Shown here piece after piece: positions 3,402-20,928 of a stretch of DNA of 61,868 nt; positions within the stretch are counted from its first letter, which is position 1; each line of letters starts with the position of its first letter. This DNA is from Deltaproteobacteria bacterium. Its GTDB lineage: Bacteria; Desulfobacterota; Anaeroferrophillalia; Anaeroferrophillales; Tharpellaceae. The stretch is from assembly GCA_030633185.1 (NCBI GenBank), contig DAOVTG010000001.1:1-61868 (forward strand), given 5' to 3'. The translations under genes were made by a program, and so were the position numbers. A model generated the notes under the pieces. The model saw only the letters and a program-made list of their open reading frames with translations, was not told the origin of the DNA and did not search any database.

Positions 3402-5492
3402 ATGAGTATTGAATTAAACAAAATACGCAATATCGGAATCAGCGCCCATATCGACTCGGGCAAAACCACCCTGACCGAAAGAATCCTGTTCTACACCCAG
3501 AAGATTCATGCAATCCACGATGTCAAAGGCAAAGATGGCGTCGGTGCCACCATGGACTCCATGGAACTTGAAAAAGAACGGGGCATCACCATCGCCTCAG
3601 CCGCCACTTTCTGCGAATGGGACGAACATGAAATCAACATCATCGACACCCCGGGCCATGTTGACTTCACAATTGAAGTCGAACGTTCCTTAAGGGTTTT
3701 AGATGGTGCAATTTTAGTCTTGTGTTCGGTAGGCGGGGTTCAATCCCAATCAATTACTGTTGACCAGCAGATGAAACGCTACAAAGTCCCCTGTATCGCT
3801 TTTATCAATAAATGCGATCGCAGCGGGGCCAACCCGGAAAGAGTTACCGAACAACTTATAGAAAAGCTGGGCCACAATGCGATTGCCATGCAGATGCCGA
3901 TAGGCCTTGAAGCTGAACATGAAGGAGTCGTTGATCTGGCCTCGATGAAAGCCATCTACTTCGACGGTGACAACGGTGAAGACTTAAGGATCGAGGAGAT
4001 TCCGGCAGAGCTCAAAGATCGGGCTGAAGAGAAACGGGAAGAGCTTATCGAGCAAGCCTCCAACTTCTGCGATGACCTGGCCGAGGCCTTCCTTGAAGAA
4101 CAGGAAATCAGTGCTGAGATGATTTTGAGTGCCATGCGTAAAGGGGTTCTGTCTCGTAAAGTCACCCCGGTATATATGGGCTCAGCCTACAAAAACAAAG
4201 GAGTTCAACCCCTGCTCGACGCCGCGGTTCAACTGCTGCCAGATCCTTCCGACGTCAGCAATTCTGCCCTCGATCTTGACAATGAAGAGACCCCGATTGA
4301 GCTCGGCAGTTCCAGCGAAGATCCGACCGTTGCCTTAGCTTTTAAACTTGAAGATGGTCAGTATGGACAACTCACCTATATCCGGGTTTACCAGGGCACA
4401 ATTACTAAGGGTGACACCCTGATCAATACGAGGAGCGGGAAAAAGATAAAAATCGGCCGCCTGGTACGCATGCATGCCAATCAGATGGAGGATATCGGCA
4501 GCATTCAGGCTGGCTACATTGGCGCTCTTTTCGGTATTGATTGTGCTTCTGGAGACACCTTTGCCGACCCTAAGCTAAACTATTCGATGACCTCAATGTT
4601 TGTCCCCAACCCGGTTATCTCACTGGCCATTATTCCCAAAGACAACAAGGCTCAGATCAATATGTCCAAAGCCTTGAACCGTTTTTCGAAAGAAGACCCG
4701 ACCTTTCGCGCCTTTGTTGATGATGAAACCAACGAAACTATTATCGAAGGCATGGGTGAACTTCACTTAGAAGTCTATGTTGAACGGATGCGCCGTGAAT
4801 ACAATGCCGAAGTCACAACCGGCCAACCTCGGGTCGCCTACCGTGAAACCATTACCAAAAGGGCTGAATTCAACTACACCCATAAAAAGCAGACCGGTGG
4901 TTCCGGACAATACGGCCGCGTCACCGGTTATATGGAACCTTTGAGTGAAGGTGAATTTGAATTTATCAATAAAATTACCGGGGGCGCAATTCCGACCCAG
5001 TTTATCTCATCCTGTGAAAAAGGCTTCAAGTCAAGCCTTGAAAAAGGCGCCCTGATGGAGTTTCCAGTCACCGGCATCCGGGTTGAAATCAATGACGGCG
5101 CGGCCCATAACGTCGACTCCTCGGAGATGGCTTTCCAGGCGGCGGCCAAAGGTGCTTTTCGGGAGGCCTACAATAAGGCCAAACCGGTTATCCATGAACC
5201 GATCATGAAAGTAGTGGTTGAAACTCCGACCGAATTTCAGGGCTCGGTAATGGGAACCATCAACCAGCGTCGCGGCACTATCGTCGGAACCCAGGACGAA
5301 GGCCCAATATGCGTTATCGAGAGCCAGGTTCCACTGGCTGAGATGTTCGGATATTCAACCATTTTACGCTCCAGTACACAGGGCAAGGCCCAATTTACCA
5401 TGGAGTTCGCCAACTACCACAGGGTCCCGCAGAGCATCACTGAAGAACTCCAGAAGAAAAAAGCGGAAGAGGCTAAAAAAGGCGCCGCCTAA
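3402..5492 (+). CDS. fusA: Elongation factor G paralogue (stand-alone, not in an rpsL-rpsG-fusA-tuf context)
   Basis: [10 protein letters not shown]1 motif, DTPGHVDF G3, NKCD G4, full five-domain length (696 aa). RBS AAAAGGTGA upstream of the ATG. Confidence 0.9.
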
Positions 5493-5548
5493 TGAAAACC
5501 CAAACTCGTAGCGCCCAGGTAATCTACCTTAGAGAGAGGAACTTTATA

Positions 5549-6244
5549 ATGTTAAAAAAAGATTTAATGATGCGTAACCCCTTGCGGGCCGTCAGTGACG
5601 AAAATGGATACATCTTGCCTGAAGGTGGTTTAGGAGCCGTTGTGGCCCGAGCCGGAGTCGGCAAAACCGCCCTTTTGGTACAACTTGCTTTAAACTCACT
5701 CCTCAAAGGTGACAACGCCCTCCACATCAGTCTCGGTGACCCGGTCAGAAAAGTCAGCCTCTGGTATAAAGAGGTTTTTAACAATATCGGCGTCCAATAT
5801 CAGATTGAAAAAATCGACGATCTTTGGAATGAACTTTTGCCCCAACGCTTCATTATGACCTTCAACATCGACGGCTTCAGCGTCCCCCGTCTTGATGAAC
5901 GCCTGACCGAACTTGCTGATCAAAATATTTTCCATCCTCAGATGATTTTAATTGACGGCCTGCCTTTCAATGAGCAAACGAAACGCACCGATCTACAAGC
6001 TTTGAAAGAGCTCTCCGAAAAATTTAAATCACACATTTGGTTTACCGTCCGCAGCCATCGCCACGAAGAACCTGACAGCGACGGCATGCCGATTCAGATA
6101 GCTGAGTTCGCCGATCTTCTCGATGTTGTAGTTAAACTCGAACCGCAAGAGAGCGATATCAGACTCAATGTCTTAAAAGGTAGCGGTGCCATCTCTTCAC
6201 AAAATCTCTCACTTGATCCGGCAACCATGCTGATCAAAGAATAA
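5549..6244 (+). CDS. RecA-superfamily (KaiC/DnaB/RadA-like) P-loop ATPase, function unknown
   Basis: Walker A ARAGVGKTALL and Walker B-like QMILIDGL. The ATG at 5549 (MLKKDL) is preferred because of GAGAGGA 9 nt upstream. The tracked ATG at 5492 would overlap the fusA stop (TAATG). Confidence 0.5.
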   Translation: MLKKDLMMRNPLRAVSDENGYILPEGGLGAVVARAGVGKTALLVQLALNSLLKGDNALHISLGDPVRKVSLWYKEVFNNIGVQYQIEKIDDLWNELLPQRFIMTFNIDGFSVPRLDERLTELADQNIFHPQMILIDGLPFNEQTKRTDLQALKELSEKFKSHIWFTVRSHRHEEPDSDGMPIQIAEFADLLDVVVKLEPQESDIRLNVLKGSGAISSQNLSLDPATMLIKE

Positions 6245-12381: not shown

Positions 12382-12399
12382 TTTTTGGAGAGGATTGTA

Positions 12400-13524
12400 A
12401 TGTTTTTACCTGAAGGACTTACTGCTGCCAGAATTCTGATTATCGATGATAATGAATTTAATGTTCAGCTCTTGGAAGCTGTGGTTACCGAGGCGGGTTA
12501 TAGCTCAGTGTTGAGTATTACCGATTCCCGGAAGGCCGAGGATATTTATCGGGCCTATCAACCGGATCTGGTGCTGCTTGATATCAGTATGCCTAACCTT
12601 GACGGTCATCAGGTGATGGAGCAATTCAAAAAAATCGAGAAATCTCCCTACCTTCCGGTTTTGGTTTTAACCGCCTTGCAAGATGATGAAACCCGGCTTA
12701 AAGCCCTGGCGAACGGAGCTCAGGATTTCCTGACCAAACCCTTTAACAGACTTGAAACCCTGACCCGAATAAAAAATATACTGACCGTCAGGCTCCTGCA
12801 CCGGCAGGTAAAAAAACAGAATGAGGAGCTTGAAATAAAGGTCAAAGAGAGAACTAAAGAGTTGCAGGAGACCCGGCTTGAGATTATCCGGCGTTTAGGC
12901 CGGGCTGCAGAATATAAAGATAATGAGACCGGTTTTCATATTATTCGGATGAGCAAGAGCTGCGCTCGCCTCGGTGAACTTGCCGGTTTAAGTGAGGCCG
13001 AGGTCGAGCTCGTTCTTAATACCAGTCCGATGCACGATATCGGTAAAATTGCGATTCCCGATATAATTCTTTTGAAACCGGGGGCGCTTGACCGTAAAGA
13101 GTGGGAGAGAATGAAACAACACCCTCTGACTGGCTACAGCTTACTTGAAGGTCACGACTCAGAACTGATGCTCTCAGCTCGTGAAATTGCGCTGACTCAT
13201 CACGAAAAATGGGATGGTAAAGGTTATCCTCAGAACTTAAAGGGGAGCGAGATTCCTTTCAACGGCCGCCTGGCCGGGATCGCCGATGTTTTCGACGCCT
13301 TGACTTCAAAAAGACCCTATAAAGATCCCTATCCGGTGAGCAAAGTGGTAGAGATTTTCAAATCGGAACGGGAGAAACACTTTGATCCCGAATTAACCGA
13401 TCTTTTCCTCCAGAATATTGATGATTTTGTCACCATAAAAGATACTTTTCCTGAAGTTGAAGCGGAGGTCGAAAACGGATATTTTCAATTAAGTGACAGG
13501 GATAAAAATGAAAAAAAAGAGTAA
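12400..13524 (+). CDS. Response regulator with HD-GYP c-di-GMP phosphodiesterase domain (RpfG-like)
   Basis: REC (ILIIDDNEFN, LLDISMPNLDG, TKP) followed by HDIGKIAIPD and HHEKWDGKGYPQ. Confidence 0.85.
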   Translation: MFLPEGLTAARILIIDDNEFNVQLLEAVVTEAGYSSVLSITDSRKAEDIYRAYQPDLVLLDISMPNLDGHQVMEQFKKIEKSPYLPVLVLTALQDDETRLKALANGAQDFLTKPFNRLETLTRIKNILTVRLLHRQVKKQNEELEIKVKERTKELQETRLEIIRRLGRAAEYKDNETGFHIIRMSKSCARLGELAGLSEAEVELVLNTSPMHDIGKIAIPDIILLKPGALDRKEWERMKQHPLTGYSLLEGHDSELMLSAREIALTHHEKWDGKGYPQNLKGSEIPFNGRLAGIADVFDALTSKRPYKDPYPVSKVVEIFKSEREKHFDPELTDLFLQNIDDFVTIKDTFPEVEAEVENGYFQLSDRDKNEKKE

Positions 13525-16171
13525 CCTTATTTATTTGATACCTGCACTCCTGGTTATTATATTAGGGTTTTGTGGAAGTATTTTATGGTTCATTGGTCAA
13601 CATAAAACCAGTGTCGGGGAGATATCTCTCTATCAGCGTTTTTTAGAAGAGAAGGGCAAAGCTGAACATAATAATTTTCTCCAGATTCAAGGGGTTGTCG
13701 GTCTCTTGGCTGAAAATCGGAAGATTATAGAATTGCTTGATGGAAACCTTCAAAAAACATCGTTAGAAGATGAACTGTTCAAAGAATATCTCAATCAGGA
13801 GTTGCGCGAAATTGCTAATCTCCCACATTTTACAGTGGCTGCGGTTTTTGATCGTAAAGGTACCTGTATTCTTTCAAGCGTAAAAAAAGCCATTGGTAAA
13901 AATTACAGTTTTCGTCCCTATTTTCAGCAGGCACTAAAGCAAGAATATGGCCTTTATGCGGCCATGGGAGTTGCTGATAAAACTCTGGGGATCTACTATT
14001 CCGTGCCGATCCGCAGAAAGGATGAGGTCATGGGGGTGGCGATGGTCAAATTTCGGCCCAGCTTTTTTGGCGCAGACCCGCTAACGGCCTATAAGAGAGT
14101 CAGAAGTGATGCAAATACGCTTACTGTTGGTATCGCTTTGCAGGATGGTGTCTTTTTTTCGACCAAAAATAAAAAACTCTACACCCTCTCCCCCTTGCCC
14201 GCAGAAGAGATCGTCCGCATGGTCGATGAGCGACGTTTTCCTGAAGAGGCTATTAATGCCTTACACTTTCCCGGCCCCAGCTGGCAGAACTTAAAACGGC
14301 AAGGTTTTATTCGCTTAACTGATGATTCAACTAAGAAAACCTATCTTCTTTTTCTTGAATCAATCTTTAATCGGGATCTTTTTTTACTCCATTTGATAGA
14401 AGAGAGCTATTTTAAACGGGCCTATAACTCTTTAAGCCAAAGCCAAAAATATCTGCAGATGATTCTACTTGCGGTTTTGGCATTGCTTTTGGGAGCACTT
14501 ATCTTTAATACTCGACGTCACTTGCAATTTAAACGAGCAACAGAAGATCTTGTCAGAGAGAAAGATAGTCATACCCACTCTATTGTTCGGCAGGAAGAGC
14601 TTTCGCATCTCCTCTACACCGCCCTTGAACAGAGTGCCAGTTCCATTGTTATTACCGATCTCGAAGGGGAAATTGAGTACGTCAACAAAGCAACCTGTTT
14701 GATGACCGGTTATAGTCGCAATGAACTGTTGGGGAAAAACCCCAGGGTTTTAAAATCTGACGAGCATGATCCCGCTTTCTATGCGGATATCTGGGGTACT
14801 ATCACCAGTGGCAAGACTTGGCGCGGTAGAATTTGCAATCGGCGTAAAGATGGCGTTCTCTATTGGGGCGAGGTCTTTATCTCCCCGATTCTCAATCGCA
14901 CCGAGACTATTACTCACTATCTCGCCATTAAAAATGATATTACCGAGCGCTTGGTGATGGAGCATGAGTTGCGAAAAGCTCTTGTCCAGGCTGAAGCTGC
15001 AAACCAGGCAAAATCAGAATTTCTGGCCAATATGAGTCATGAGATTCGCACACCCATGAATGCGGTCATCGGCATGAGCCGCTTGGCGCTTGAGAGCAAG
15101 CTAACCAAAGAGCAAAGTAATTTAATCTCATCTGTTTATAGCTCCGCCGCCGGTTTGTTGGCCTTACTTAATGATATTCTCGATCTTTCAAAGATCGAAG
15201 CGGGCCAATTGACGCTGGAAAACAGCTCTTTTTCACTTTTCTCATTGATCAAACTGCTGCAAGATACGATGCAGCAGTTAGCTGATGAAAAAGGGGTGTC
15301 ATTTCAGGTTATGGCAGAGTACGAGGCTCTGACCGACCATCTTATGGGTGATGAACTCAGGTTGCGTCAAATCCTCATAAATCTGGTCAACAATGCCATA
15401 AAATTTACTGAAAAAGGGTCGGTTAAGTTAGAAGTTATGGCGCTTCATAACGAACTTGATGACACCGTTAAACAGACGCTTAGTTTTTCGGTTACTGATA
15501 CCGGCATCGGTATCTCAGCGGAGAAACTTGACCACATCTTTGACAATTTCAGCCAGGCCGATAATACTACGGCTCGAAAATACGGTGGCAGCGGACTCGG
15601 TTTGGCAATCTCCAAAAAGTTGGTTGAGATGATGGGAGGAAGTTTGGTTGTGACCAGTGAAGTCGGCAGCGGCTCAACCTTCTCTTTTTCTCTTCAAGTG
15701 AAAAAAGGATTAGGCTCCCCTCCGGTTTTAATTGAGAAAGAGGGGCAACTCCACCGCTATCTGCCGGTGTCGGAAAAGAGTGCGGTTGCACCTAAAGCAA
15801 CTCTCTCAACCTCACCTGAAAAGCTCTCTTCAGAAAATGAAAAAGTAGTATCTTCCTTGCCGGAGATAATCTTCCAATACCTAAAAAAAGAGTATCAGTT
15901 AGAAGACGAACAGATAGAGTCGTTAATCGAGGTCTCACGGCAAAATATGCACAAAAATCTGGAGTTATTGCAAAAAGAGTGTGAAACTGAAAATTTCGAC
16001 GCTATTAAACAAAGCGCCCACGCCTTGAAAGGAATTCTTCTGAACATGGGCCTTAAAGTTCAGGCTGAATATGTCCTGAAAGTTGAACGTGAAGCGTTGT
16101 CTGAAAACGCAGCCGGCTGCCGGAAACTGGTGGTTGGTTTGTTGGATGAGCTACAAGGATTTATCCTATGA
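13508..16171 (+). CDS. Sensor histidine kinase with extracytoplasmic Cache/PDC-like domain, PAS, HisKA, HATPase_c and C-terminal Hpt
   Basis: TM, periplasmic region and TM; PAS (SSIVITDLEGEIEYVNKA...); H-box [14 protein letters not shown]; G-boxes; terminal Hpt (QSAHALKGILLNMGL). The start MKKKSNL at 13508 overlaps the HD-GYP gene end. Confidence 0.85.
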   Translation: MKKKSNLIYLIPALLVIILGFCGSILWFIGQHKTSVGEISLYQRFLEEKGKAEHNNFLQIQGVVGLLAENRKIIELLDGNLQKTSLEDELFKEYLNQELREIANLPHFTVAAVFDRKGTCILSSVKKAIGKNYSFRPYFQQALKQEYGLYAAMGVADKTLGIYYSVPIRRKDEVMGVAMVKFRPSFFGADPLTAYKRVRSDANTLTVGIALQDGVFFSTKNKKLYTLSPLPAEEIVRMVDERRFPEEAINALHFPGPSWQNLKRQGFIRLTDDSTKKTYLLFLESIFNRDLFLLHLIEESYFKRAYNSLSQSQKYLQMILLAVLALLLGALIFNTRRHLQFKRATEDLVREKDSHTHSIVRQEELSHLLYTALEQSASSIVITDLEGEIEYVNKATCLMTGYSRNELLGKNPRVLKSDEHDPAFYADIWGTITSGKTWRGRICNRRKDGVLYWGEVFISPILNRTETITHYLAIKNDITERLVMEHELRKALVQAEAANQAKSEFLANMSHEIRTPMNAVIGMSRLALESKLTKEQSNLISSVYSSAAGLLALLNDILDLSKIEAGQLTLENSSFSLFSLIKLLQDTMQQLADEKGVSFQVMAEYEALTDHLMGDELRLRQILINLVNNAIKFTEKGSVKLEVMALHNELDDTVKQTLSFSVTDTGIGISAEKLDHIFDNFSQADNTTARKYGGSGLGLAISKKLVEMMGGSLVVTSEVGSGSTFSFSLQVKKGLGSPPVLIEKEGQLHRYLPVSEKSAVAPKATLSTSPEKLSSENEKVVSSLPEIIFQYLKKEYQLEDEQIESLIEVSRQNMHKNLELLQKECETENFDAIKQSAHALKGILLNMGLKVQAEYVLKVEREALSENAAGCRKLVVGLLDELQGFIL

Positions 16172-17541
16172 TTTTAAATATAAGACTAAAAATTATTTTG
16201 TTATTATGTTTTGTTTTCACTAATATGTTGATATTTGCCCTCACGGAAATCAACGGAAGACAAAGAATTAAATTGGCAATCAATGCCAATTTGCAAGATT
16301 TACAGACACAGTTTGAGGTGATAAATCGATTTCATGAAATAGATGCGAGATCTATATATCTCTCAACCCAAAGCAACCAAAAAGTTCAAGAGATATTATT
16401 ACAGTTAAAGGATGCTGATAAGAAAAAAAAGGATATCCTGAGGGTAGAATTACTTAACCAATTAAAACAAAAATATGAGTACCTGAGATTTAGAGGAGTA
16501 TATCAATATCATTTTGTCATGCCGGATAATACAACTTTCTTGAGAATGCATAACCCTGAAAAATATGATGATTACTTGGGTGAAGTAAGATATTCATTTT
16601 ATAATACCAACAAAACACATAAACCAACGATTGGATTTGAACGGGGGAAAACTGCCCACGCATTTAGAAACACCTACCCTGTCTTTGACAAAGACGGCAA
16701 TTATCTGTGTGCTTTGGATATTGGATATGGTTCTGAAGTTATACAAGACCACCTGACTCAAGTAAGCCATCTTCATACGCATTTTTTAGTACATAAAAAT
16801 GTCTTAAGTGCAAGAATATGGAAAAGAAAATGGCTTAACCTAGATTATATCCAGAGTATCGAAAATGAAAACTATCTGTTTGCAATAACGAAAGAGCATT
16901 CAGAGGCAAAACTGAAAAGAACAAATCAATTTTTAACAGAAGCTCATAAAAAAGATATAAAAGAAAAAATGAACTCAGGAAAAAGTTTTGGCATATATTT
17001 TTTGCAGGATAAAGAATCTATGATAGTGTCTTTTGTGCCAATACTTAACATAAGGGATAAAAAAGTAGTTTCATATTTAGTTTCATACAAGCCCAGCAAA
17101 TTTATTGACAGCACATTATTGTTTATCAACATAGTTAGATCTGTCTTTTTGTTATTATTATTAGTACTCTTTTATTTTATTTATGAAAATGAACTTGCCA
17201 TCATAAAAGAGAGAGATTTTAGCTTTGAGCTTGAACGAAAAGTTGAAAAAAGAACTTATGAACTTGGAATTCAGAAACGCGAAGCAGAAGAGGCACATGA
17301 AAAAATTGACATTCGCAACAAGGAACTTAACGAAGCGTTATCAAAAGTTAAATTACTGAGTGGTATTATCCCAATATGTGCTTCGTGCAAAAAAATACGT
17401 GACGACGATGGTTATTGGAACCAAGTTGAGGCTTATATCAGAGACCGTTCAATGGCAGAGTTTAGCCATGGTATTTGTCCAGAATGTAAAAAAAAGTTGT
17501 ACCCTGAATTTTGTGACAATGAGGTTGATGAACAGAAATGA
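16168..17541 (+). CDS. Membrane sensor: single-Cache-like domain, TM, coiled coil, C-terminal Cys4 (CxxC...H.x.CPxC) module; no recognisable catalytic output
   Basis: Cache-like core (YQYHFVMPDNTTFLRMHNPEKYDDYLGEVR...GFERGKTAHAFRNTYPVF), TM (VFLLLLLVLFYFIY), coiled coil, then IPICASCKKIRDDDGYWNQVEAYIRDRSMAEFSHGICPECKKK. ATGA overlap with the upstream kinase. Visibly AT-rich. Confidence 0.6.
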   Translation: MILNIRLKIILLLCFVFTNMLIFALTEINGRQRIKLAINANLQDLQTQFEVINRFHEIDARSIYLSTQSNQKVQEILLQLKDADKKKKDILRVELLNQLKQKYEYLRFRGVYQYHFVMPDNTTFLRMHNPEKYDDYLGEVRYSFYNTNKTHKPTIGFERGKTAHAFRNTYPVFDKDGNYLCALDIGYGSEVIQDHLTQVSHLHTHFLVHKNVLSARIWKRKWLNLDYIQSIENENYLFAITKEHSEAKLKRTNQFLTEAHKKDIKEKMNSGKSFGIYFLQDKESMIVSFVPILNIRDKKVVSYLVSYKPSKFIDSTLLFINIVRSVFLLLLLVLFYFIYENELAIIKERDFSFELERKVEKRTYELGIQKREAEEAHEKIDIRNKELNEALSKVKLLSGIIPICASCKKIRDDDGYWNQVEAYIRDRSMAEFSHGICPECKKKLYPEFCDNEVDEQK

Positions 17542-17557
17542 TCCAACAAAATGAAAA

Positions 17558-17707
17558 ATGCGGATTTTAATTGTCGATGATGAACCCGCTAACGTCTCTA
17601 TCTTGGGTAATCTTCTTGAGAATGATTATACTGTTATGGTTGCCATGAACGGCAAAATTTTTGACCATCTCTCAGGAGTATCAAGTCAGAAAGGAGAATC
17701 AAAATGA
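17558..17707 (+). pseudogene. Truncated response-regulator receiver remnant (first ~33 aa of a REC domain, then out-of-family tail)
   Basis: MRILIVDDEPANVSILGNLLENDYTVMVAMNGK matches beta1-alpha1-beta2 of REC, then IFDHLSGVSSQKGESK and a stop. The phospho-acceptor Asp region is absent. At 49 codons it is below the track cutoff. Confidence 0.55.
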
Positions 17708-18351
17708 TTAAAAAAGGAGTTGTTTGGGCGATTGTTCTGTTAGCAATCACATTTTCAGTGGCGGCGGCCTCAGATTATGTCCCTTTTGTCAAAAAAAACG
17801 TAACAATTGAGACGCTTAAACAGTTACAGCTTGGTGGTTTTGTGCTTTATTTGCGGCATGGCCCGACCGATACTTCACGTCCTGATCGAGTGCCTCGGGT
17901 CGATCTTGACGATTGTTCGACTCAGAGACCGCTTACCGAGGCGGGGCGGGCTGAGGCTGCGGCCGTGGGTCAAGCCCTGCGCCAAGCCAAGATTCCGATT
18001 GGCGAGGTTCAATCCAGCCCGATGTGCAGAACCAAAGAATCGGCAATCGCAGCTTTTGCCAAAGAACCGGTAATAAACCATGATCTAATGTACACCTCCA
18101 ATCTGACCAGCTCGGAGAAGGTGCCTAAAATTAAGACGCTGCGTCGGCTTCTCTCAACCCCGGTAGCCGCTGGAGCCAACCTGGTATTGGTTGCCCATGC
18201 CCCGAATTTGATGGATGTTATGGGCTATTTTGTTAAACCGGAAGCCACCGTTGTGGTCTTTAAGCCGTTAGGCCAACAGGGTTTTGAATATCTTGGTTCA
18301 ATTGAACCGTCACAATGGCAGGGACTTCTTGAAGACTTAGCCATCTCGTGA
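17704..18351 (+). CDS. Secreted histidine phosphatase superfamily (phosphoglycerate-mutase-like/SixA-like) protein
   Basis: Signal peptide (VWAIVLLAITFSVAAA), catalytic RHG motif (LYLRHGPTD), later VLVAHAPN (the second catalytic His). Confidence 0.75.
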   Translation: MIKKGVVWAIVLLAITFSVAAASDYVPFVKKNVTIETLKQLQLGGFVLYLRHGPTDTSRPDRVPRVDLDDCSTQRPLTEAGRAEAAAVGQALRQAKIPIGEVQSSPMCRTKESAIAAFAKEPVINHDLMYTSNLTSSEKVPKIKTLRRLLSTPVAAGANLVLVAHAPNLMDVMGYFVKPEATVVVFKPLGQQGFEYLGSIEPSQWQGLLEDLAIS

Positions 18352-18369
18352 CTTTTTACGAGGGCATCA
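18337..18369 (+). repeat. 33-nt box TTAGCCATCTCGTGACTTTTTACGAGGGCATCA (copy C)
   Basis: Near-identical to 10046-10078. It spans the stop codon of the phosphatase gene and ends 3 nt before the ATG of the next kinase. Confidence 0.6.
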
Positions 18370-18372
18370 ACC

Positions 18373-20928
18373 ATGACTCTCCACGAAAAATCTGCACAAG
18401 CTTTGCCAAATAAGCCGGGAAATACCATTCTTTGGCTCTTTCTTCTGCCGATAATCATGGTTGCCCTGATCGCGGCCCTGATTAACCTCTGGTCGTTAAA
18501 TACCATGAAAGAGCGCAACCATATCCGGGCTGAAATCACCCATCAGTATTTGGTTCTTCTGCTGGAAATGGCACAACTCGGTCAAGAGATGGCAGATATT
18601 CACCTTCTGGCAACCGACAGTTTGAAAAAGGCCGTCGAGGGGGTAGTTGACGAGGGGGAGCTTTATCAAATCCATTCCATACTGGTTGATGGTTTGGCGG
18701 AGCTTGGGGAGAAAACCAGGATCCTGGCTGTAAGGCCGGAGGTTACAACCTGGGCTCCTGCAGATGCCCAGGTTATGGTTGATGATTTTGCCATTTATCG
18801 AAATTTCATGATCATGGCCACTGATATTGCGGCGATTGAGCCGCAAACGGCAAAATTTCATATCGACAAGGCCCGGGATCTTTTCATGGATATGGTTAAA
18901 CGTCGCCAGGCCATCTCTACAATCCTGACCGAAAATGCCCAGCAACAAAATCGGGTCAGTGAGCGCTCTACGTCTAAGATTTTTAATCAGGTTATGGGGG
19001 TCAGCGGATCGGGCTTGTTGGTGATGTTGCTGGTCTCGATTTTCCTCTCTCAGCTACTAAGTCGATGGATGAGCCGGATCGCTACCGCCCTCCATCTTCT
19101 GGCCCCAACCAGCAAGACCGCAATTGCCTTGCCCGAGATCGAACAGATGCAAAAAAAGGGGGTTGGTGAGTTCAAAAATATGGCTGGGGCGGTACTCGTT
19201 TTTCGCCAGGCGATTCAAGAACGTTATGCCGCGGAAACCGAACTTAAAGCCTATAAAGATAGTCTCGAAGAGTTGGTGAGCGAGCGTACCACGGAATTGA
19301 CTATCACCGCTAAACGGTTACAACAAGTCCAGAAGATCGCCCACTTAGGTAGTTGGGAATGGAATGTCAGCAACAATAAAATGGTCTGGTCAGAGGAAAC
19401 CTATCGTATACACGGATTTAATTCCTACGAAAAAATGATTGATTTTGAAACATTTTTCAGCATGGCCCATCTTGATGATCGCAAAGCGGTCAAGCAGGTT
19501 GTGAAAAAAGCTCTTAATTCCCAGCAGGGGTCTTATAGTATTGATCATCGGATTATTCGGCCTGATGGCAGCTTTCGTTTCGTCCAGGTGCAGGGTGAAA
19601 TGTTTCTTGATGACAGCGGTAATCCATGCAAAATGGTGGGAACAGTTCTGGATATAACGGATCGTAAAGAGATTGAACTAAACTTGATCAAAGCTAAAGA
19701 AGATGCCGAATCGGCAACCCGGGCCAAGGGCGAATTTCTGGCTAATATGAGCCATGAGATCAGAACTCCGATGAATGCCATCACTGGTTTTACTGAACTC
19801 GCCTTAGAGACCGAACTTAGCCCTAAACAGACCGATTATCTCAATAAAATACAGCTTTCCGCCTCATCTCTGTTGGGCATTATTAATGATATTCTCGATT
19901 TCTCCAAGATTGAAGCCGGGGCTTTGCTGATCGAAACAGTCAGTTTCCGTCCCGCCACTCTGGTTAATAATCTCTCCACCATTTTCAGCAGTCTGACTAA
20001 TGATAAAGGGCTGGGTATGATTTTCGATCTTGATGCCGAATTGCCCAAAGCTTTGCGGGGTGATCCCGGTCGACTTAACCAGGTTTTGGTCAATCTCACC
20101 TCAAATGCGATTAAATTTACCGAGCAGGGTGAAGTCGGGATCTCGATTCAAGTGGTTGAGCGAGATAACTCGGCGGTCAAGGTTCGATTTTCGGTTAAAG
20201 ATAGCGGTATCGGCATCGAAAAAGATACGTTGGGAAAAATCTTTACATCTTTCACCCAGGCCGACACCTCGACCACCAGAAAATACGGGGGCACCGGCTT
20301 AGGCCTGACGATCTGCGCTCAACTGGTTGAACTTATGGGCGGCAAGATCACGGTAGAGAGTACCTTAGGCCAGGGTTCTCTATTTTTTTTCACCCTGGAT
20401 ATGACGATCGGGGAAGAGGTCAAAGTCGTAACTGCGACCGACTCTCTCTTGCCGGCTGGAGCTGCGGGCAGTGCTAAAGAGCCAGCCCTTCTAAAGGGCT
20501 GCCGGGTTCTTCTGGTTGAGGACAATTTGATTAATAAGGAAGTGGCCATAGCGAAGCTTGAAAAAATCGGTCTTATAGTCGATCTCGCTGGTAATGGTCG
20601 GGAAGCGGTCAAGGCGGCAGCGGCATTTGACTATGACGCCATTCTTATGGATATCCAGATGCCGATTATGGGTGGTTTAAAAGCTGCAAGCTTAATTCGT
20701 GAAGAGGAAGTTGTGCAACTTGCAAAAGGGGCCGACCGTCGGGTACCGATTATCGCCATGACCGCCAATGCCATGATTGAAGATGAGAAAAAAAGCCTTG
20801 CGGCCGGTATGGATAGTCACATCAGTAAACCGATTGACACCAAACTGCTCTATCAAACCTTGATCAACTGTGTTACCCAAGAACGCGAAAAAAGGGCCAT
20901 CTCCGCTACCACAAAAGGTGATAAATAA
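18373..20928 (+). CDS. Hybrid sensor histidine kinase/response regulator (helical periplasmic sensor, HAMP-like, PAS, HisKA, HATPase_c, REC)
   Basis: Two TMs; PAS (LGSWEWNVSNNKMVWSEETYRIHG); H-box [14 protein letters not shown]; G-boxes; REC (VLLVEDNLINK...LMDIQMPIMGG...SKP). Confidence 0.85.
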   Translation: MTLHEKSAQALPNKPGNTILWLFLLPIIMVALIAALINLWSLNTMKERNHIRAEITHQYLVLLLEMAQLGQEMADIHLLATDSLKKAVEGVVDEGELYQIHSILVDGLAELGEKTRILAVRPEVTTWAPADAQVMVDDFAIYRNFMIMATDIAAIEPQTAKFHIDKARDLFMDMVKRRQAISTILTENAQQQNRVSERSTSKIFNQVMGVSGSGLLVMLLVSIFLSQLLSRWMSRIATALHLLAPTSKTAIALPEIEQMQKKGVGEFKNMAGAVLVFRQAIQERYAAETELKAYKDSLEELVSERTTELTITAKRLQQVQKIAHLGSWEWNVSNNKMVWSEETYRIHGFNSYEKMIDFETFFSMAHLDDRKAVKQVVKKALNSQQGSYSIDHRIIRPDGSFRFVQVQGEMFLDDSGNPCKMVGTVLDITDRKEIELNLIKAKEDAESATRAKGEFLANMSHEIRTPMNAITGFTELALETELSPKQTDYLNKIQLSASSLLGIINDILDFSKIEAGALLIETVSFRPATLVNNLSTIFSSLTNDKGLGMIFDLDAELPKALRGDPGRLNQVLVNLTSNAIKFTEQGEVGISIQVVERDNSAVKVRFSVKDSGIGIEKDTLGKIFTSFTQADTSTTRKYGGTGLGLTICAQLVELMGGKITVESTLGQGSLFFFTLDMTIGEEVKVVTATDSLLPAGAAGSAKEPALLKGCRVLLVEDNLINKEVAIAKLEKIGLIVDLAGNGREAVKAAAAFDYDAILMDIQMPIMGGLKAASLIREEEVVQLAKGADRRVPIIAMTANAMIEDEKKSLAAGMDSHISKPIDTKLLYQTLINCVTQEREKRAISATTKGDK

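What the first reader, a model, noticed from the sequence alone, without database searches (positions are those of the whole stretch)
17353..17511. Cache sensor ending in a conserved-looking Cys4 module (IPICASCKKIRDDDGYW...HGICPECKKK) with no known output domain
- **Architecture:** the 457-aa protein (16168-17541) has a Cache-like extracytoplasmic domain, one TM and a coiled coil. It ends in LLSGIIPICASCKKIRDDDGYWNQVEAYIRDRSMAEFSHGICPECKKKLYPEF.
- **Familiarity:** I recognise this CxxCKKIRDD.G.W...HG.CP.C tail as recurring at the C-termini of PAS/REC signalling proteins in deltaproteobacteria and spirochaetes. I do not know of an assigned function.
- **Plausible roles:** it could be a zinc-ribbon-like output or interaction module.
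- **Context:** the gene is translationally coupled (ATGA) to the preceding Hpt-containing kinase.
- **Composition:** it is markedly AT-rich. Hand counts of 60-nt samples give about 32% G+C here against about 43% in the upstream gene, which suggests foreign origin.
Basis: partly seen in the sequence, partly recalled or inferred. Interest (0 to 1): 0.6.

Follow-up and report, generated by a model that had tools for sequence, protein, structure and literature searches.

The report
Sensor ending in unnamed four-cysteine tail
A horizontally acquired membrane sensor gene ends in a tiny, extremely conserved four-cysteine domain that sits where a kinase or cyclase normally sits in tens of thousands of bacterial signalling proteins, yet has no name, solved structure or known target.

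Summary
ORF 16168-17541 (+) encodes a 457-aa protein: signal anchor, periplasmic dCache_3-like domain, second TM segment, cytoplasmic helix, then a CxxC-x29-CPxC module (aa 396-452).

- **Family:** about 21,400 protein clusters (50% identity) carry the module, across at least 15 phyla. The Cys spacing is invariant. It matches nothing in Pfam, NCBIfam or PDB, and I found no paper on it.
- **Partners:** every partner domain seen is an input (PAS, GAF, REC, HAMP, MASE6, Cache, propeller).
- **Output position:** close relatives of this very sensor (60-65% identical up to the cytoplasmic helix) carry GGDEF or a histidine-kinase core at the same point. Two REC-tail response regulators of the same genome lie next to kinases. 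The tail therefore occupies the output position.
- **Fold:** AlphaFold (pLDDT 90) gives a treble-clef-like knuckle-hairpin-helix-helix fold with no PDB neighbour.
- **Target:** unknown. Flagellar switch, CheW arrays, PilZ and sigma-54 are excluded as obligatory targets. A slightly acidic net charge and near-identity among paralogues argue against sequence-specific DNA binding.
- **Origin:** the gene has the lowest G+C in the genome (32% against 48%), is absent from the same locus in a congener, and is not an assembly chimera.

The scan has reported this tail on at least eight other genomes, with the same verdict.

The parts
13493..16171 (+). Upstream sensor kinase (PAS-HisKA-HATPase-Hpt). Its stop overlaps the start of the sensor gene. 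It lacks the internal REC domain that its orthologue in a congener has.
   Evidence: Pfam hits. ATGA overlap. The G209 orthologue carries about 130 extra residues between HATPase and Hpt.
16168..17541 (+). The whole gene: Cache-type membrane sensor with a Cys4 tail, 457 aa. It forms a low-G+C island of 32.1%.
   Evidence: Logan contigs bridge both ends at even depth.
16168..16242 (+). N-terminal hydrophobic segment (signal anchor / TM1), aa 1-25.
   Evidence: Hydropathy scan.
16243..17112 (+). Periplasmic dCache_3-like sensor domain, aa ~26-315.
   Evidence: PF14827 at 23.7 bits against a cut-off of 25.7. Relatives at 60-65% identity carry PF14827 and GGDEF or a kinase core.
17113..17181 (+). 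Second transmembrane segment, aa ~316-338.
   Evidence: Hydropathy scan.
17185..17352 (+). Cytoplasmic signalling helix / coiled coil, aa 340-395. Homology with the GGDEF- and kinase-bearing relatives ends inside it, at about aa 381-387.
   Evidence: BLASTP end points. Helix in the first AlphaFold model. The family consensus E.E...L...L..AL..VK.LSG lies upstream of the tail.
17353..17523 (+). Cys4 tail module, aa 396-452: LLSGIIP-ICASC-KKIRDDDGYW-NQVEAYIRDRS-MAEFSHGI-CPEC-KKKLYPEF. The Cys codons are at 17377-17379, 17386-17388, 17476-17478 and 17485-17487.
17558..17707 (+). 49-codon remnant of a receiver-domain start (MRILIVDDEPANVSILGNLLE...), 38% G+C. It probably belongs to the same imported segment.
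   Evidence: Sequence. G+C. Weak REC-type match to the N-terminus of P0007. No match to the REC lost from the neighbouring kinase.

Best explanation
**What it is.** The gene encodes a membrane-bound, one-component-type receptor. A periplasmic double-Cache-like domain senses a small ligand. The signal passes through TM2 and a dimeric cytoplasmic signalling helix to a C-terminal ~50-residue metal-binding (most likely Zn-Cys4), treble-clef-like module.

**What is shown.**
- The module belongs to a huge uncatalogued family.
- It is the only non-sensory part of its host proteins.
- It replaces GGDEF or a histidine-kinase core at the same junction in the signalling helix of orthologous sensors.
- It is the sole output of receiver-domain proteins encoded next to kinases.

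**What is inferred.**
- The helix controls the relative arrangement or exposure of the two tails of a dimer.
- The tails then bind or release a shared, strongly conserved cytoplasmic partner, more likely a protein than DNA. Many different sensors in one cell would thus converge on one target.

**This copy.** It was acquired recently from a low-G+C donor and inserted directly behind an Hpt-bearing kinase gene.
For: - **Family size and conservation:** 21,398 representative clusters match at E<=1e-3 and 14,154 at E<=1e-10. The CxxC-x29-CxxC spacing is kept in 293 of 296 modules. P, C, C, W, C, C are invariant, and K13, R16, D18, G20, E26, Y28 are at least 90% conserved.
- **Terminal position:** the last tail lies within 70 residues of the C-terminus in 250 of 253 members.
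- **Partner domains:** 133 diverse members carry only input domains, namely PAS, MASE6, GAF, REC, HAMP, PocR, SBP_bac_3, propeller/Y_Y_Y, Cache and 7TM. The same holds for long proteins.
- **Domain swap:** the sensor half of P0001 is 60-65% identical to proteins that end in GGDEF (P0123-P0133) or in HisKA_2/HATPase (P0126). Homology runs to aa ~381-387, inside the cytoplasmic helix, and then the outputs differ.
- **Response-regulator output:** the same genome has REC-tail proteins directly after a HATPase-REC-Hpt hybrid kinase (8-nt overlap) and after another kinase.
- **Fold:** with 149 sequences AlphaFold gives pLDDT 90.2. The topology is knuckle, beta-hairpin, helix, and a second CPxC knuckle that opens the last helix.
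- **Common conserved target:** tails stay 58-86% identical between unrelated hosts, paralogues and phyla. Up to 17 copies occur per genome. No partner gene recurs beside them.
- **Against DNA binding:** mean net charge is -1.5 over 149 tails.
- **Foreign origin:** G+C is the lowest in the genome. The closest homologue sits on a 31.8% G+C contig. The gene is absent from the orthologous locus of a congener. The junctions are bridged by Logan contigs with 0 differences and even depth.
Against: - **No target identified:** there is no conserved neighbour, no fusion to a known effector, and no structural neighbour in the PDB.
- **Metal untested:** the metal and its identity are inferred from four invariant cysteines only.
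- **Model stability:** three of the five AlphaFold models, and the first run with a shallower alignment, were of low confidence.
- **Dimer mechanism:** control of tail geometry through a dimeric helix is argued by analogy with GGDEF and kinase receptors. It was not tested.
- **Alternative ligand:** the many conserved polar residues (K, R, D, D, E, Y, H) would also suit a small-molecule site.
- **This copy's function:** whether it works in its new host is unknown. The decayed receiver fragment behind it shows that part of the imported segment is already eroding.
Confidence: 0.55

Rival explanations
1. The tail is a nucleic-acid-binding zinc finger. These proteins would then be membrane-bound or soluble one-component transcription or RNA regulators, and the REC-tail proteins ordinary DNA-binding response regulators with an unusual DNA-binding domain.
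For: - Cys4 fingers of the treble-clef class commonly bind DNA or RNA (established knowledge).
- K13, K14, R16 and a K-rich start of the last helix are conserved.
- Most response-regulator outputs bind DNA.
- Galperin et al. propose DNA or RNA binding for the haloarchaeal CXXC-CXXC output domain HalOD2 (PMC5847659).
Against: - The net charge is slightly negative, mean -1.5.
- Up to 17 paralogues per genome keep nearly the same sequence, so they could not have separate regulons.
- The same sequence is kept across at least 15 phyla.
- Many hosts are polytopic membrane proteins.
- Pfam, PDB sequence and Foldseek searches found no similarity to any DNA-binding finger.
Confidence: 0.15
2. The tail is not an output but a second sensor or ligand site. 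It could be a redox-, iron- or zinc-responsive Cys4 centre (rubredoxin-like), or a nucleotide-messenger pocket such as one for c-di-GMP, using the conserved R-D-D-x-G-Y-W hairpin. It would modulate the host protein.
For: - The C-x2-C-x29-C-P-x-C spacing equals that of rubredoxin (own knowledge; the own-genome rubredoxin is seen).
- Carriers are mostly anaerobes of sediments and seeps.
- R16-x-x-D19 resembles an RxxD site, and aromatic residues follow.
- GGDEF genes are present in all five tail-bearing genomes tested.
Against: - Profile comparison with the genome's own rubredoxin gives 1.7% probability, and Pfam Rubredoxin does not match.
- The predicted fold has two helices, unlike rubredoxin.
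- If the tail were an input, REC-tail, PAS-tail and Cache-tail proteins would have no output at all.
- The tail takes exactly the place of GGDEF or the kinase core.
- H39 is not invariant (85%).
Confidence: 0.15
3. The tail is a homotypic assembly module. Tails of different sensors and of REC-tail regulators bind one another and build mixed signalling complexes, so no separate target exists.
For: - Genomes often hold several copies.
- Conservation between paralogues is extreme.
- Some proteins carry two tails, including a close tandem in P0006 and an internal tail in the REC-tail-REC-Hpt protein P0107.
- No partner gene is found nearby.
Against: - About a third of the tail-positive genomes in the phylum sample show a single match, which leaves only self-association.
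- A complex of sensors and receivers still lacks an effector.
Confidence: 0.1
4. In this genome the gene is a recently imported passenger that is not wired into host signalling and is on its way to decay. The ATGA coupling to the kinase would then be an accident of insertion.
For: - It has the lowest G+C of the genome.
- It is absent from the same locus in a congener.
- The adjacent receiver gene is reduced to 49 codons.
- The neighbouring kinase has lost its internal REC.
Against: - The 457-codon frame is intact and every invariant residue of the tail is kept.
- The host has two further tail proteins, so any shared target should be present.
- The gene is at the same depth as its flanks in two runs.
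Confidence: 0.1

Closest known systems
Signalling-helix-coupled output domains of bacterial receptors: GGDEF diguanylate cyclase (PF00990) and HisKA/HisKA_2-HATPase transmitter cores
   Same: - It has the same position: C-terminal to Cache, PAS, GAF, HAMP or REC inputs, joined by a coiled-coil helix.
- It is interchangeable with them on orthologous sensors, with the junction at aa ~381-387.
- It is the terminal element of kinase-adjacent response regulators.
   Different: - It has about 50 residues, four invariant cysteines and no sequence or fold similarity to them.
- It is far too small for a nucleotide cyclase or ATPase fold.
- No enzymatic product or phosphoryl chemistry can be assigned.
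Treble-clef / zinc-knuckle Cys4 fingers (structural class; for example the ClpX N-terminal zinc-binding domain, GATA and nuclear-receptor fingers; own knowledge)
   Same: The predicted order of elements agrees: a CxxC knuckle, a beta-hairpin, and a second CPxC pair at the start of a helix.
   Different: - An extra helix (residues 25-32 of the module) lies between the hairpin and the last helix.
- No Pfam zinc-finger family matches.
Rubredoxin (PF00301)
   Same: The ligand spacing is identical, C-x2-C-x29-C-P-x-C, and an aromatic residue follows the first knuckle.
   Different: - hhalign probability against the genome's own rubredoxin is 1.7%.
- There is no Pfam hit.
- Two helices are predicted rather than an all-beta/loop fold.
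- It is always attached to signalling domains.
HalOD2 output domain of haloarchaeal response regulators (Galperin et al. 2018, PMC5847659)
   Same: It is a response-regulator output with two conserved CXXC motifs, predicted to form a Zn finger, and of unknown function.
   Different: - The HalOD2 motifs are 20-25 residues apart, follow a HalX-like part, and are confined to a few halobacteria.
- Here the spacing is an invariant 29, the family is bacterial and spans many phyla.
- The two were not compared by sequence, because no HalOD2 sequence was in hand.
Zinc-binding anti-sigma (ZAS) domains, H-x3-C-x2-C (own knowledge)
   Same: A Cys/His cluster with an upstream ligand some 26 residues before H-x2-C-x2-C. 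Some hosts are membrane proteins. A sequester-and-release mechanism would fit a shared target.
   Different: - The motif spacing differs (H-x2-C, not H-x3-C), and H39 is only 85% conserved.
- zf-HC2 does not match.
- No sigma-factor gene recurs next to tail genes.
Receptors without an enzymatic output that signal by protein contact, such as the Cache_heme-HAMP receptor that binds a Ser/Thr kinase (bioRxiv 10.64898/2026.05.25.727664; abstract only)
   Same: A periplasmic Cache-type sensor plus TM and a small cytoplasmic module with no intrinsic enzyme. The output goes through a partner protein.
   Different: In that case the partner is encoded nearby and the contact is made through HAMP. Here no partner is known and the module is a Cys4 finger.

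Membership tests
Signal-output (transmitter) module of one- and two-component systems (functional class) | Lies C-terminal to input domains and is the only non-input domain of the protein | tested here: met
   Only input families were found in 133 diverse members and in long members. The tail is within 70 aa of the C-terminus in 250 of 253 members.
Signal-output (transmitter) module of one- and two-component systems (functional class) | Interchangeable with recognised outputs on orthologous sensor halves | tested here: met
   The same sensor (60-65% identical) ends in GGDEF or in HisKA_2/HATPase. Homology ends at aa ~381-387, in the cytoplasmic helix.
Signal-output (transmitter) module of one- and two-component systems (functional class) | Occurs after a receiver domain in proteins encoded beside histidine kinases | tested here: met
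   L002 1066-1713 is a REC-tail gene that overlaps the stop of a HATPase-REC-Hpt kinase. L003 1006-1590 is a REC-tail gene after a kinase.
Signal-output (transmitter) module of one- and two-component systems (functional class) | A demonstrable downstream effect (product, target or regulon) | not testable with these tools
   No partner, fusion or conserved neighbour was found. This needs experiments.
Zinc finger, treble-clef class | Four metal ligands: two from a knuckle and two from the first turn of a helix, with a beta-hairpin between | tested here: inconclusive
   The AlphaFold secondary structure fits, at pLDDT 90.2 in 2 of 5 models. Coordinates could not be inspected, and no PDB neighbour was found.
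Zinc finger, treble-clef class | Binds zinc | not testable with these tools
   Inferred from four invariant cysteines only.
Rubredoxin (PF00301) | Match to the family profile | tested here: not met
   No Pfam hit at E<=1. hhalign probability against the own-genome rubredoxin is 1.7%.
Rubredoxin (PF00301) | C-x2-C-x29-C-P-x-C ligand spacing | tested here: met
   The spacing is 29 in 293 of 296 modules. The rubredoxin of this genome has the same spacing.
dCache_3 (PF14827), for the sensor half | Score at or above Pfam's gathering cut-off | tested here: inconclusive
   P0001 scores 23.7 bits against a cut-off of 25.7. Relatives at 52-65% identity have PF14827 on record.
HalOD2 (PMC5847659) | Two CXXC motifs 20-25 residues apart after a HalX-like segment; halobacteria only | tested here: not met
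   The spacing here is an invariant 29. The preceding segment is a coiled coil from PAS, REC or TM. Carriers are bacteria of many phyla. No direct sequence comparison was made.
ZAS anti-sigma domain (zf-HC2) | H-x3-C-x2-C motif and an adjacent sigma-factor gene | tested here: not met
   The motif is H-x2-C-x2-C, with H at 85%. There is no zf-HC2 hit and no recurrent neighbour other than kinases.

The most novel reading that the evidence does not exclude
The Cys4 tail is the receiver end of an undescribed convergent signalling route. Dozens of unrelated sensors and phosphorelays per cell would present the same tiny zinc module to one conserved cellular target. This is comparable in logic and scale to chemoreceptor tips converging on CheA/CheW, or GGDEF domains converging on c-di-GMP. 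The route would be widespread in anaerobic and environmental phyla and absent from the classical model organisms.
Probability: 0.35. Interest if true: 0.85.

Novelty: new variant of a known kind. Interest (0 to 1): 0.6.

Why it matters
- **Scale of the gap:** more than 20,000 protein clusters, in nearly half of the genomes sampled from this phylum and in at least 15 phyla, end in this module and have no other output. The signalling output of a large share of bacterial sensors in sediments, seeps, groundwater and spirochaetes is therefore unknown, and no database names the domain.
- **What solving it would do:** identifying the target would assign a function to all of these proteins at once. 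It might also reveal a new signalling hub.
- **What this window adds:**
  - a clean natural domain swap (the same sensor with tail, GGDEF or kinase) that fixes the module's boundary and role;
  - a confident fold prediction;
  - the exclusion of four obvious candidate targets;
  - evidence that a tail-bearing sensor can move between distant hosts, as expected if its target is universal.

Tried and rejected
- **Literature:** motif strings, "output domain" with zinc or CxxC terms, MASE6, four cysteines, and the Cache_heme papers all gave nothing on this module. HalOD2 in PMC5847659 is a different domain.
- **Sequence libraries:** Pfam and NCBIfam gave only sub-threshold chance hits: DUF3039, DZR_2 and DUF7351. 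PDB by sequence, as a single protein and as a profile, gave nothing below E=0.05.
- **Rubredoxin:** kinship was rejected.
- **Partner by gene neighbourhood:** in 71 loci from many phyla the only recurrent neighbour was a kinase-like cluster, in 22 loci. No recurrent small ORF was found. The contigs of stand-alone mini-proteins were too short to use.
- **Fusions to known effectors:** none among the best 120, the 133 scanned or the long members.
- **Candidate targets excluded as obligatory:**
  - FliG_C was not found in 48 of 140 tail-positive genomes.
  - CheW was not found in a closed genome that carries a tail.
  - PilZ was not found in a 100%-complete genome with 5 tails.
  - Sigma-54 was not found in two large Anaerolineae assemblies that carry the tail.
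- **Not excluded:** GGDEF.
- **Receiver remnant:** it is neither the REC lost from the neighbouring kinase nor clearly the start of a P0007-like gene.
Full report
**1. The observation**

ORF 16168-17541 (+) is intact and gives a 457-aa protein, P0001. It ends in LLSGIIPICASCKKIRDDDGYWNQVEAYIRDRSMAEFSHGICPECKKKLYPEF, followed by nine acidic or polar residues. The finding's span 17353-17511 is aa 396-448, and the cysteines are C404, C407, C437 and C440.

The start codon overlaps the stop of the upstream gene as ATGA. That gene (13493-16171) is a PAS-HisKA-HATPase-Hpt kinase.

A hydropathy scan shows two membrane segments, aa ~5-25 and ~316-338. The layout is therefore signal anchor, periplasmic domain (aa ~26-315), TM2, cytoplasmic helix (aa 340-395), then the tail. 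The periplasmic part matches dCache_3 at 23.7 bits, just under the 25.7-bit cut-off. Its relatives carry that family on record.

**2. The tail is a real, very large and uncatalogued family**

| Measure | Result |
|---|---|
| Proteins of 250-800 aa found with the last 60 residues (word-indexed search) | 4,532, tails 70-87% identical to the query |
| 50%-identity representatives matched (exhaustive HMMER, 1.84 billion) | 21,398 at E<=1e-3; 14,154 at E<=1e-10 |
| Modules with exact C-x2-C-x29-C-x2-C spacing | 293 of 296 |
| Members with the last tail within 70 residues of the C-terminus | 250 of 253 |
| Members with two tails | 36 of 253 |

- **Conservation:** in a 149-sequence non-redundant alignment (A3), P7, C9, C12, W22, C42 and C45 are invariant or 99% conserved. 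G4, K13, R16, D18, G20, E26 and Y28 are at least 90% conserved. H39 and P43 are 85% conserved.
- **Unusual architectures:** one protein has a close tandem of tails (P0006), and one has an internal tail in a REC-tail-REC-Hpt protein (P0107).
- **No database match:** Pfam-A and NCBIfam have no family for the tail; the only hits are sub-threshold chance matches. PDB sequences give nothing significant, either with the single tail or with a profile.
- **No literature:** seven full-text searches found no paper that mentions the motif or the module. HalOD2 of haloarchaeal response regulators is a different CXXC-CXXC domain with 20-25-residue spacing (PMC5847659).
- **Prior scan reports:** earlier reports of this scan reached the same "unnamed, widespread Cys4 output tail" verdict on at least eight other genomes.

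**3. Distribution**

- A pattern scan of one genome per species found more than 448 loci. The best 80 come from Nitrospirota, Elusimicrobiota, Chloroflexota, Planctomycetota, Thermodesulfobacteriota, Ignavibacteriota, Verrucomicrobiota, Kiritimatiellia, Spirochaetota, Bacteroidota, Gemmatimonadota, Gamma- and Zetaproteobacteria, Myxococcota, Acidobacteriota, Riflebacteria and Calditrichota. Tail identity among them is 62-84%.
- In a 301-genome sample of the window's own phylum, 140 genomes carry the tail, with 1 to 17 matches each.
- The window's genome is a 2.47-Mb, 294-contig assembly from cold-seep metagenomes. It has three copies.

**4. The tail stands in the output position**

(a) Among 133 diverse members, every Pfam family found is an input or transmembrane sensor module:

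| Family | Members |
|---|---|
| PAS | 46 |
| MASE6 | 15 |
| GAF | 11 |
| REC | 8 |
| HAMP | 4 |
| PocR, SBP_bac_3, Reg_prop/Y_Y_Y, dCache_1, sCache_3_2, MASE1, 7TM, Tll0287-like | 1-2 each |

No enzymatic or helix-turn-helix domain occurs. Proteins of 775-1,791 aa likewise carry only propeller, PAS or GAF domains.

(b) The sensor half of P0001 has close relatives that end differently:
- P0121, P0122 and P0130 end in the tail (54-73% identical).
- P0123-P0133 end in GGDEF (50-65% identical).
- P0126 ends in HisKA_2/HATPase (61% identical).
- More distant relatives carry other kinase cores.

BLASTP alignments run from aa 4 to aa ~381-387. They pass through TM2 and about 45 residues into the cytoplasmic helix, and then the outputs diverge. 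This is a natural domain swap at the signalling helix.

(c) The two other copies in this genome are response regulators:
- L002 1066-1713 is REC-helix-tail. Its start overlaps by 8 nt the stop of a HATPase-REC-Hpt hybrid kinase.
- L003 1006-1590 is REC-helix-tail with a six-residue insertion in the hairpin, directly after a kinase.

The tail is therefore the terminal element of phosphorelays as well as of one-component sensors.

**5. Fold**

- A first model (73 sequences, 72 residues) was poor, at pLDDT 63.
- With 149 sequences and tight borders, the best model reached pLDDT 90.2 and pTM 0.59. The second model reached 89.5, and the other three 55-68.
- Elements in order: a bridge at residue 8 next to C9/C12; a beta-hairpin I15-R16 / W22-N23, whose turn is the conserved D-D-x-G-Y; helix 25-32; a loop; then helix 43-49, which begins at C42-P-E-C45.
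- A knuckle, a hairpin and a helix that donates the last two ligands from its first turn is the treble-clef arrangement (class definition from own knowledge). Here it has one extra helix.
- The ligand spacing equals that of rubredoxin. However, a profile comparison with this genome's own rubredoxin gives 1.7% probability, and the Pfam model does not match.

**6. What the target is not**

- **No conserved neighbour:** across 71 loci from many phyla the only recurrent neighbour family is kinase-like, in 22 loci. No small ORF recurs, apart from synteny between close relatives.
- **Candidate targets excluded.** A universal target must be present in every carrier, and four candidates fail this test:
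  - FliG_C was not found in 48 of 140 tail-positive genomes, many 98-100% complete.
  - CheW was not found in a closed 4.5-Mb genome with a tail.
  - PilZ was not found in a 100%-complete 10-contig genome with five tails.
  - The sigma-54 DNA-binding domain is present in all five genomes tested in the phylum, but was not found in two large Anaerolineae assemblies that carry the tail.
- **Not excluded:** GGDEF is present in all five genomes tested.
- **Against sequence-specific DNA binding:**
  - The mean net charge of 149 tails is -1.5, SD 2.1.
  - Paralogues inside one genome keep almost the same sequence. The window's tail is 31/53 identical to its paralogue in L002 and 86% identical to the tail of an unrelated REC-PAS protein, P0007. 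That leaves no room for separate DNA specificities.

**7. Most likely mechanism**

*Shown:* the tail is a compact Cys4 domain joined to a signalling helix, at the exact place where GGDEF or a kinase core is joined in orthologous receptors.

*Inferred:*
1. The four cysteines hold a structural metal, most likely zinc.
2. As in helix-coupled cyclases and kinases, the input domain changes the register or spacing of the dimeric helix, and so the mutual arrangement or exposure of the two tails.
3. The conserved polar hairpin (K13, R16, D17, D18, G20, Y21) and helix face (E26, Y28) form a binding surface for one strongly conserved cytoplasmic component shared by all tail proteins of a cell.

I put about 0.85 on "genuine output-position domain family". 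I put about 0.4 on "acts by regulated binding of a common protein partner". The rivals are nucleic-acid binding, a redox, metal or nucleotide-ligand site, and homotypic assembly. All are listed with their tests in the rival explanations.

**8. This copy is foreign**

- **Composition:**

| Region | G+C |
|---|---|
| This gene | 32.1% (GC3 29%) |
| Upstream kinase | 43.5% |
| Downstream gene | 50% |
| Whole genome | 48.2% |

  None of 10,470 windows of 1,374 nt in the assembly is as low; their mean is 48.3% with SD 3.1.
- **Closest homologue:** P0121, 73% identical, lies on a contig of 31.8% G+C.
- **Congener locus:** in congener G209 the REC-HD gene and the kinase are present at 78% nucleotide identity. 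There the kinase is followed after 51 nt by a different kinase, with no low-G+C stretch.
- **Kinase difference:** the congener's kinase has about 130 residues, with receiver-domain-like motifs, between HATPase and Hpt that the window's kinase lacks.
- **Eroding remnant:** behind the sensor gene lies a 49-codon receiver-domain start of 38% G+C (17558-17707). It is probably the eroded remainder of the imported segment. It matches neither the kinase's lost REC nor, clearly, P0007.
- **Not an assembly chimera:** Logan contigs of two cold-seep runs cover 15500-16743 with no differences, and 16717-17881 and 16717-18320 with three. Depth is even, at 14/12 and 24/21. These runs may be the samples the genome was assembled from, so they provide an independent assembler, not independent DNA.
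- **A third run:** a third cold-seep run holds only pieces of the island gene and none of the flanks, at 4x depth. This is a weak hint that the gene also exists in another context.
- **Consequence:** the ATGA coupling to the Hpt kinase is a recent juxtaposition. Since this protein has no receiver domain, it cannot take a phosphoryl group from the Hpt anyway.

**9. Verdict**

The finding is real and its reading is sound. The module is an undescribed family within a known kind of part, a signalling output domain built as a small zinc finger. Its scale and its unknown target make it worth experimental work. The scan has already reported it repeatedly on other genomes. What is new here is the three-way natural domain swap, a confident fold prediction, the exclusion of four candidate targets, and the demonstration that this copy is a horizontally acquired island.

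Noticed in passing
window 18335-18370: A 36-nt dispersed intergenic repeat (consensus ACTTAGCCATCCCGTGACTTTTTACGAGGGCATCAA). It has 120 copies within 5 mismatches in this 2.47-Mb genome and dozens in congeners. Summed contig depth at this spot is 4,000-5,700 in the cold-seep runs, and many contigs break there.
   Followed up: partly
window 13493-16171: The kinase upstream of the sensor has HATPase followed directly by Hpt. Its orthologue in congener G209 (L095 160-1803) has about 130 extra residues with receiver-domain-like motifs between them. The window's kinase has apparently lost its internal receiver domain.
   Followed up: partly
window 17558-17707: A 49-codon ORF that starts like a receiver domain (MRILIVDDEPANVSILGNLLE) and then stops, at 38% G+C. 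It is probably a remnant of a response regulator imported together with the sensor gene.
   Followed up: partly
L002 1066-1713 and L003 1006-1590 (same genome, contigs C213 and C204): Two REC-helix-Cys4-tail response regulators. One overlaps the stop of a HATPase-REC-Hpt hybrid kinase. The other carries a six-residue insertion (REPGSG) in the conserved hairpin of the tail.
   Followed up: yes
P0002-P0005, P0006, P0107, P0140-P0247: Proteins with two tails: typically membrane sensor-tail-PAS-tail, of about 530 aa. There is also one close tandem of tails after REC (P0006) and one tail placed between two receiver domains (REC-tail-REC-Hpt, P0107). The tail is therefore not strictly C-terminal.
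   Followed up: partly
run X3 on window 16184-16437 and 16700-16927: A cold-seep metagenome from a different study holds near-identical pieces of the low-G+C sensor gene but none of its flanks, at about 4x depth. The gene may also exist there in another genomic context.
   Followed up: no
window 12385-13524 and 18373-20928: The sensor gene sits in a dense signalling cluster. A REC-HD(HD_5) response regulator lies upstream of the kinase. A secreted histidine-phosphatase-family protein (17704-18351) and a PAS-HisKA-HATPase-REC hybrid kinase lie downstream.
   Followed up: no
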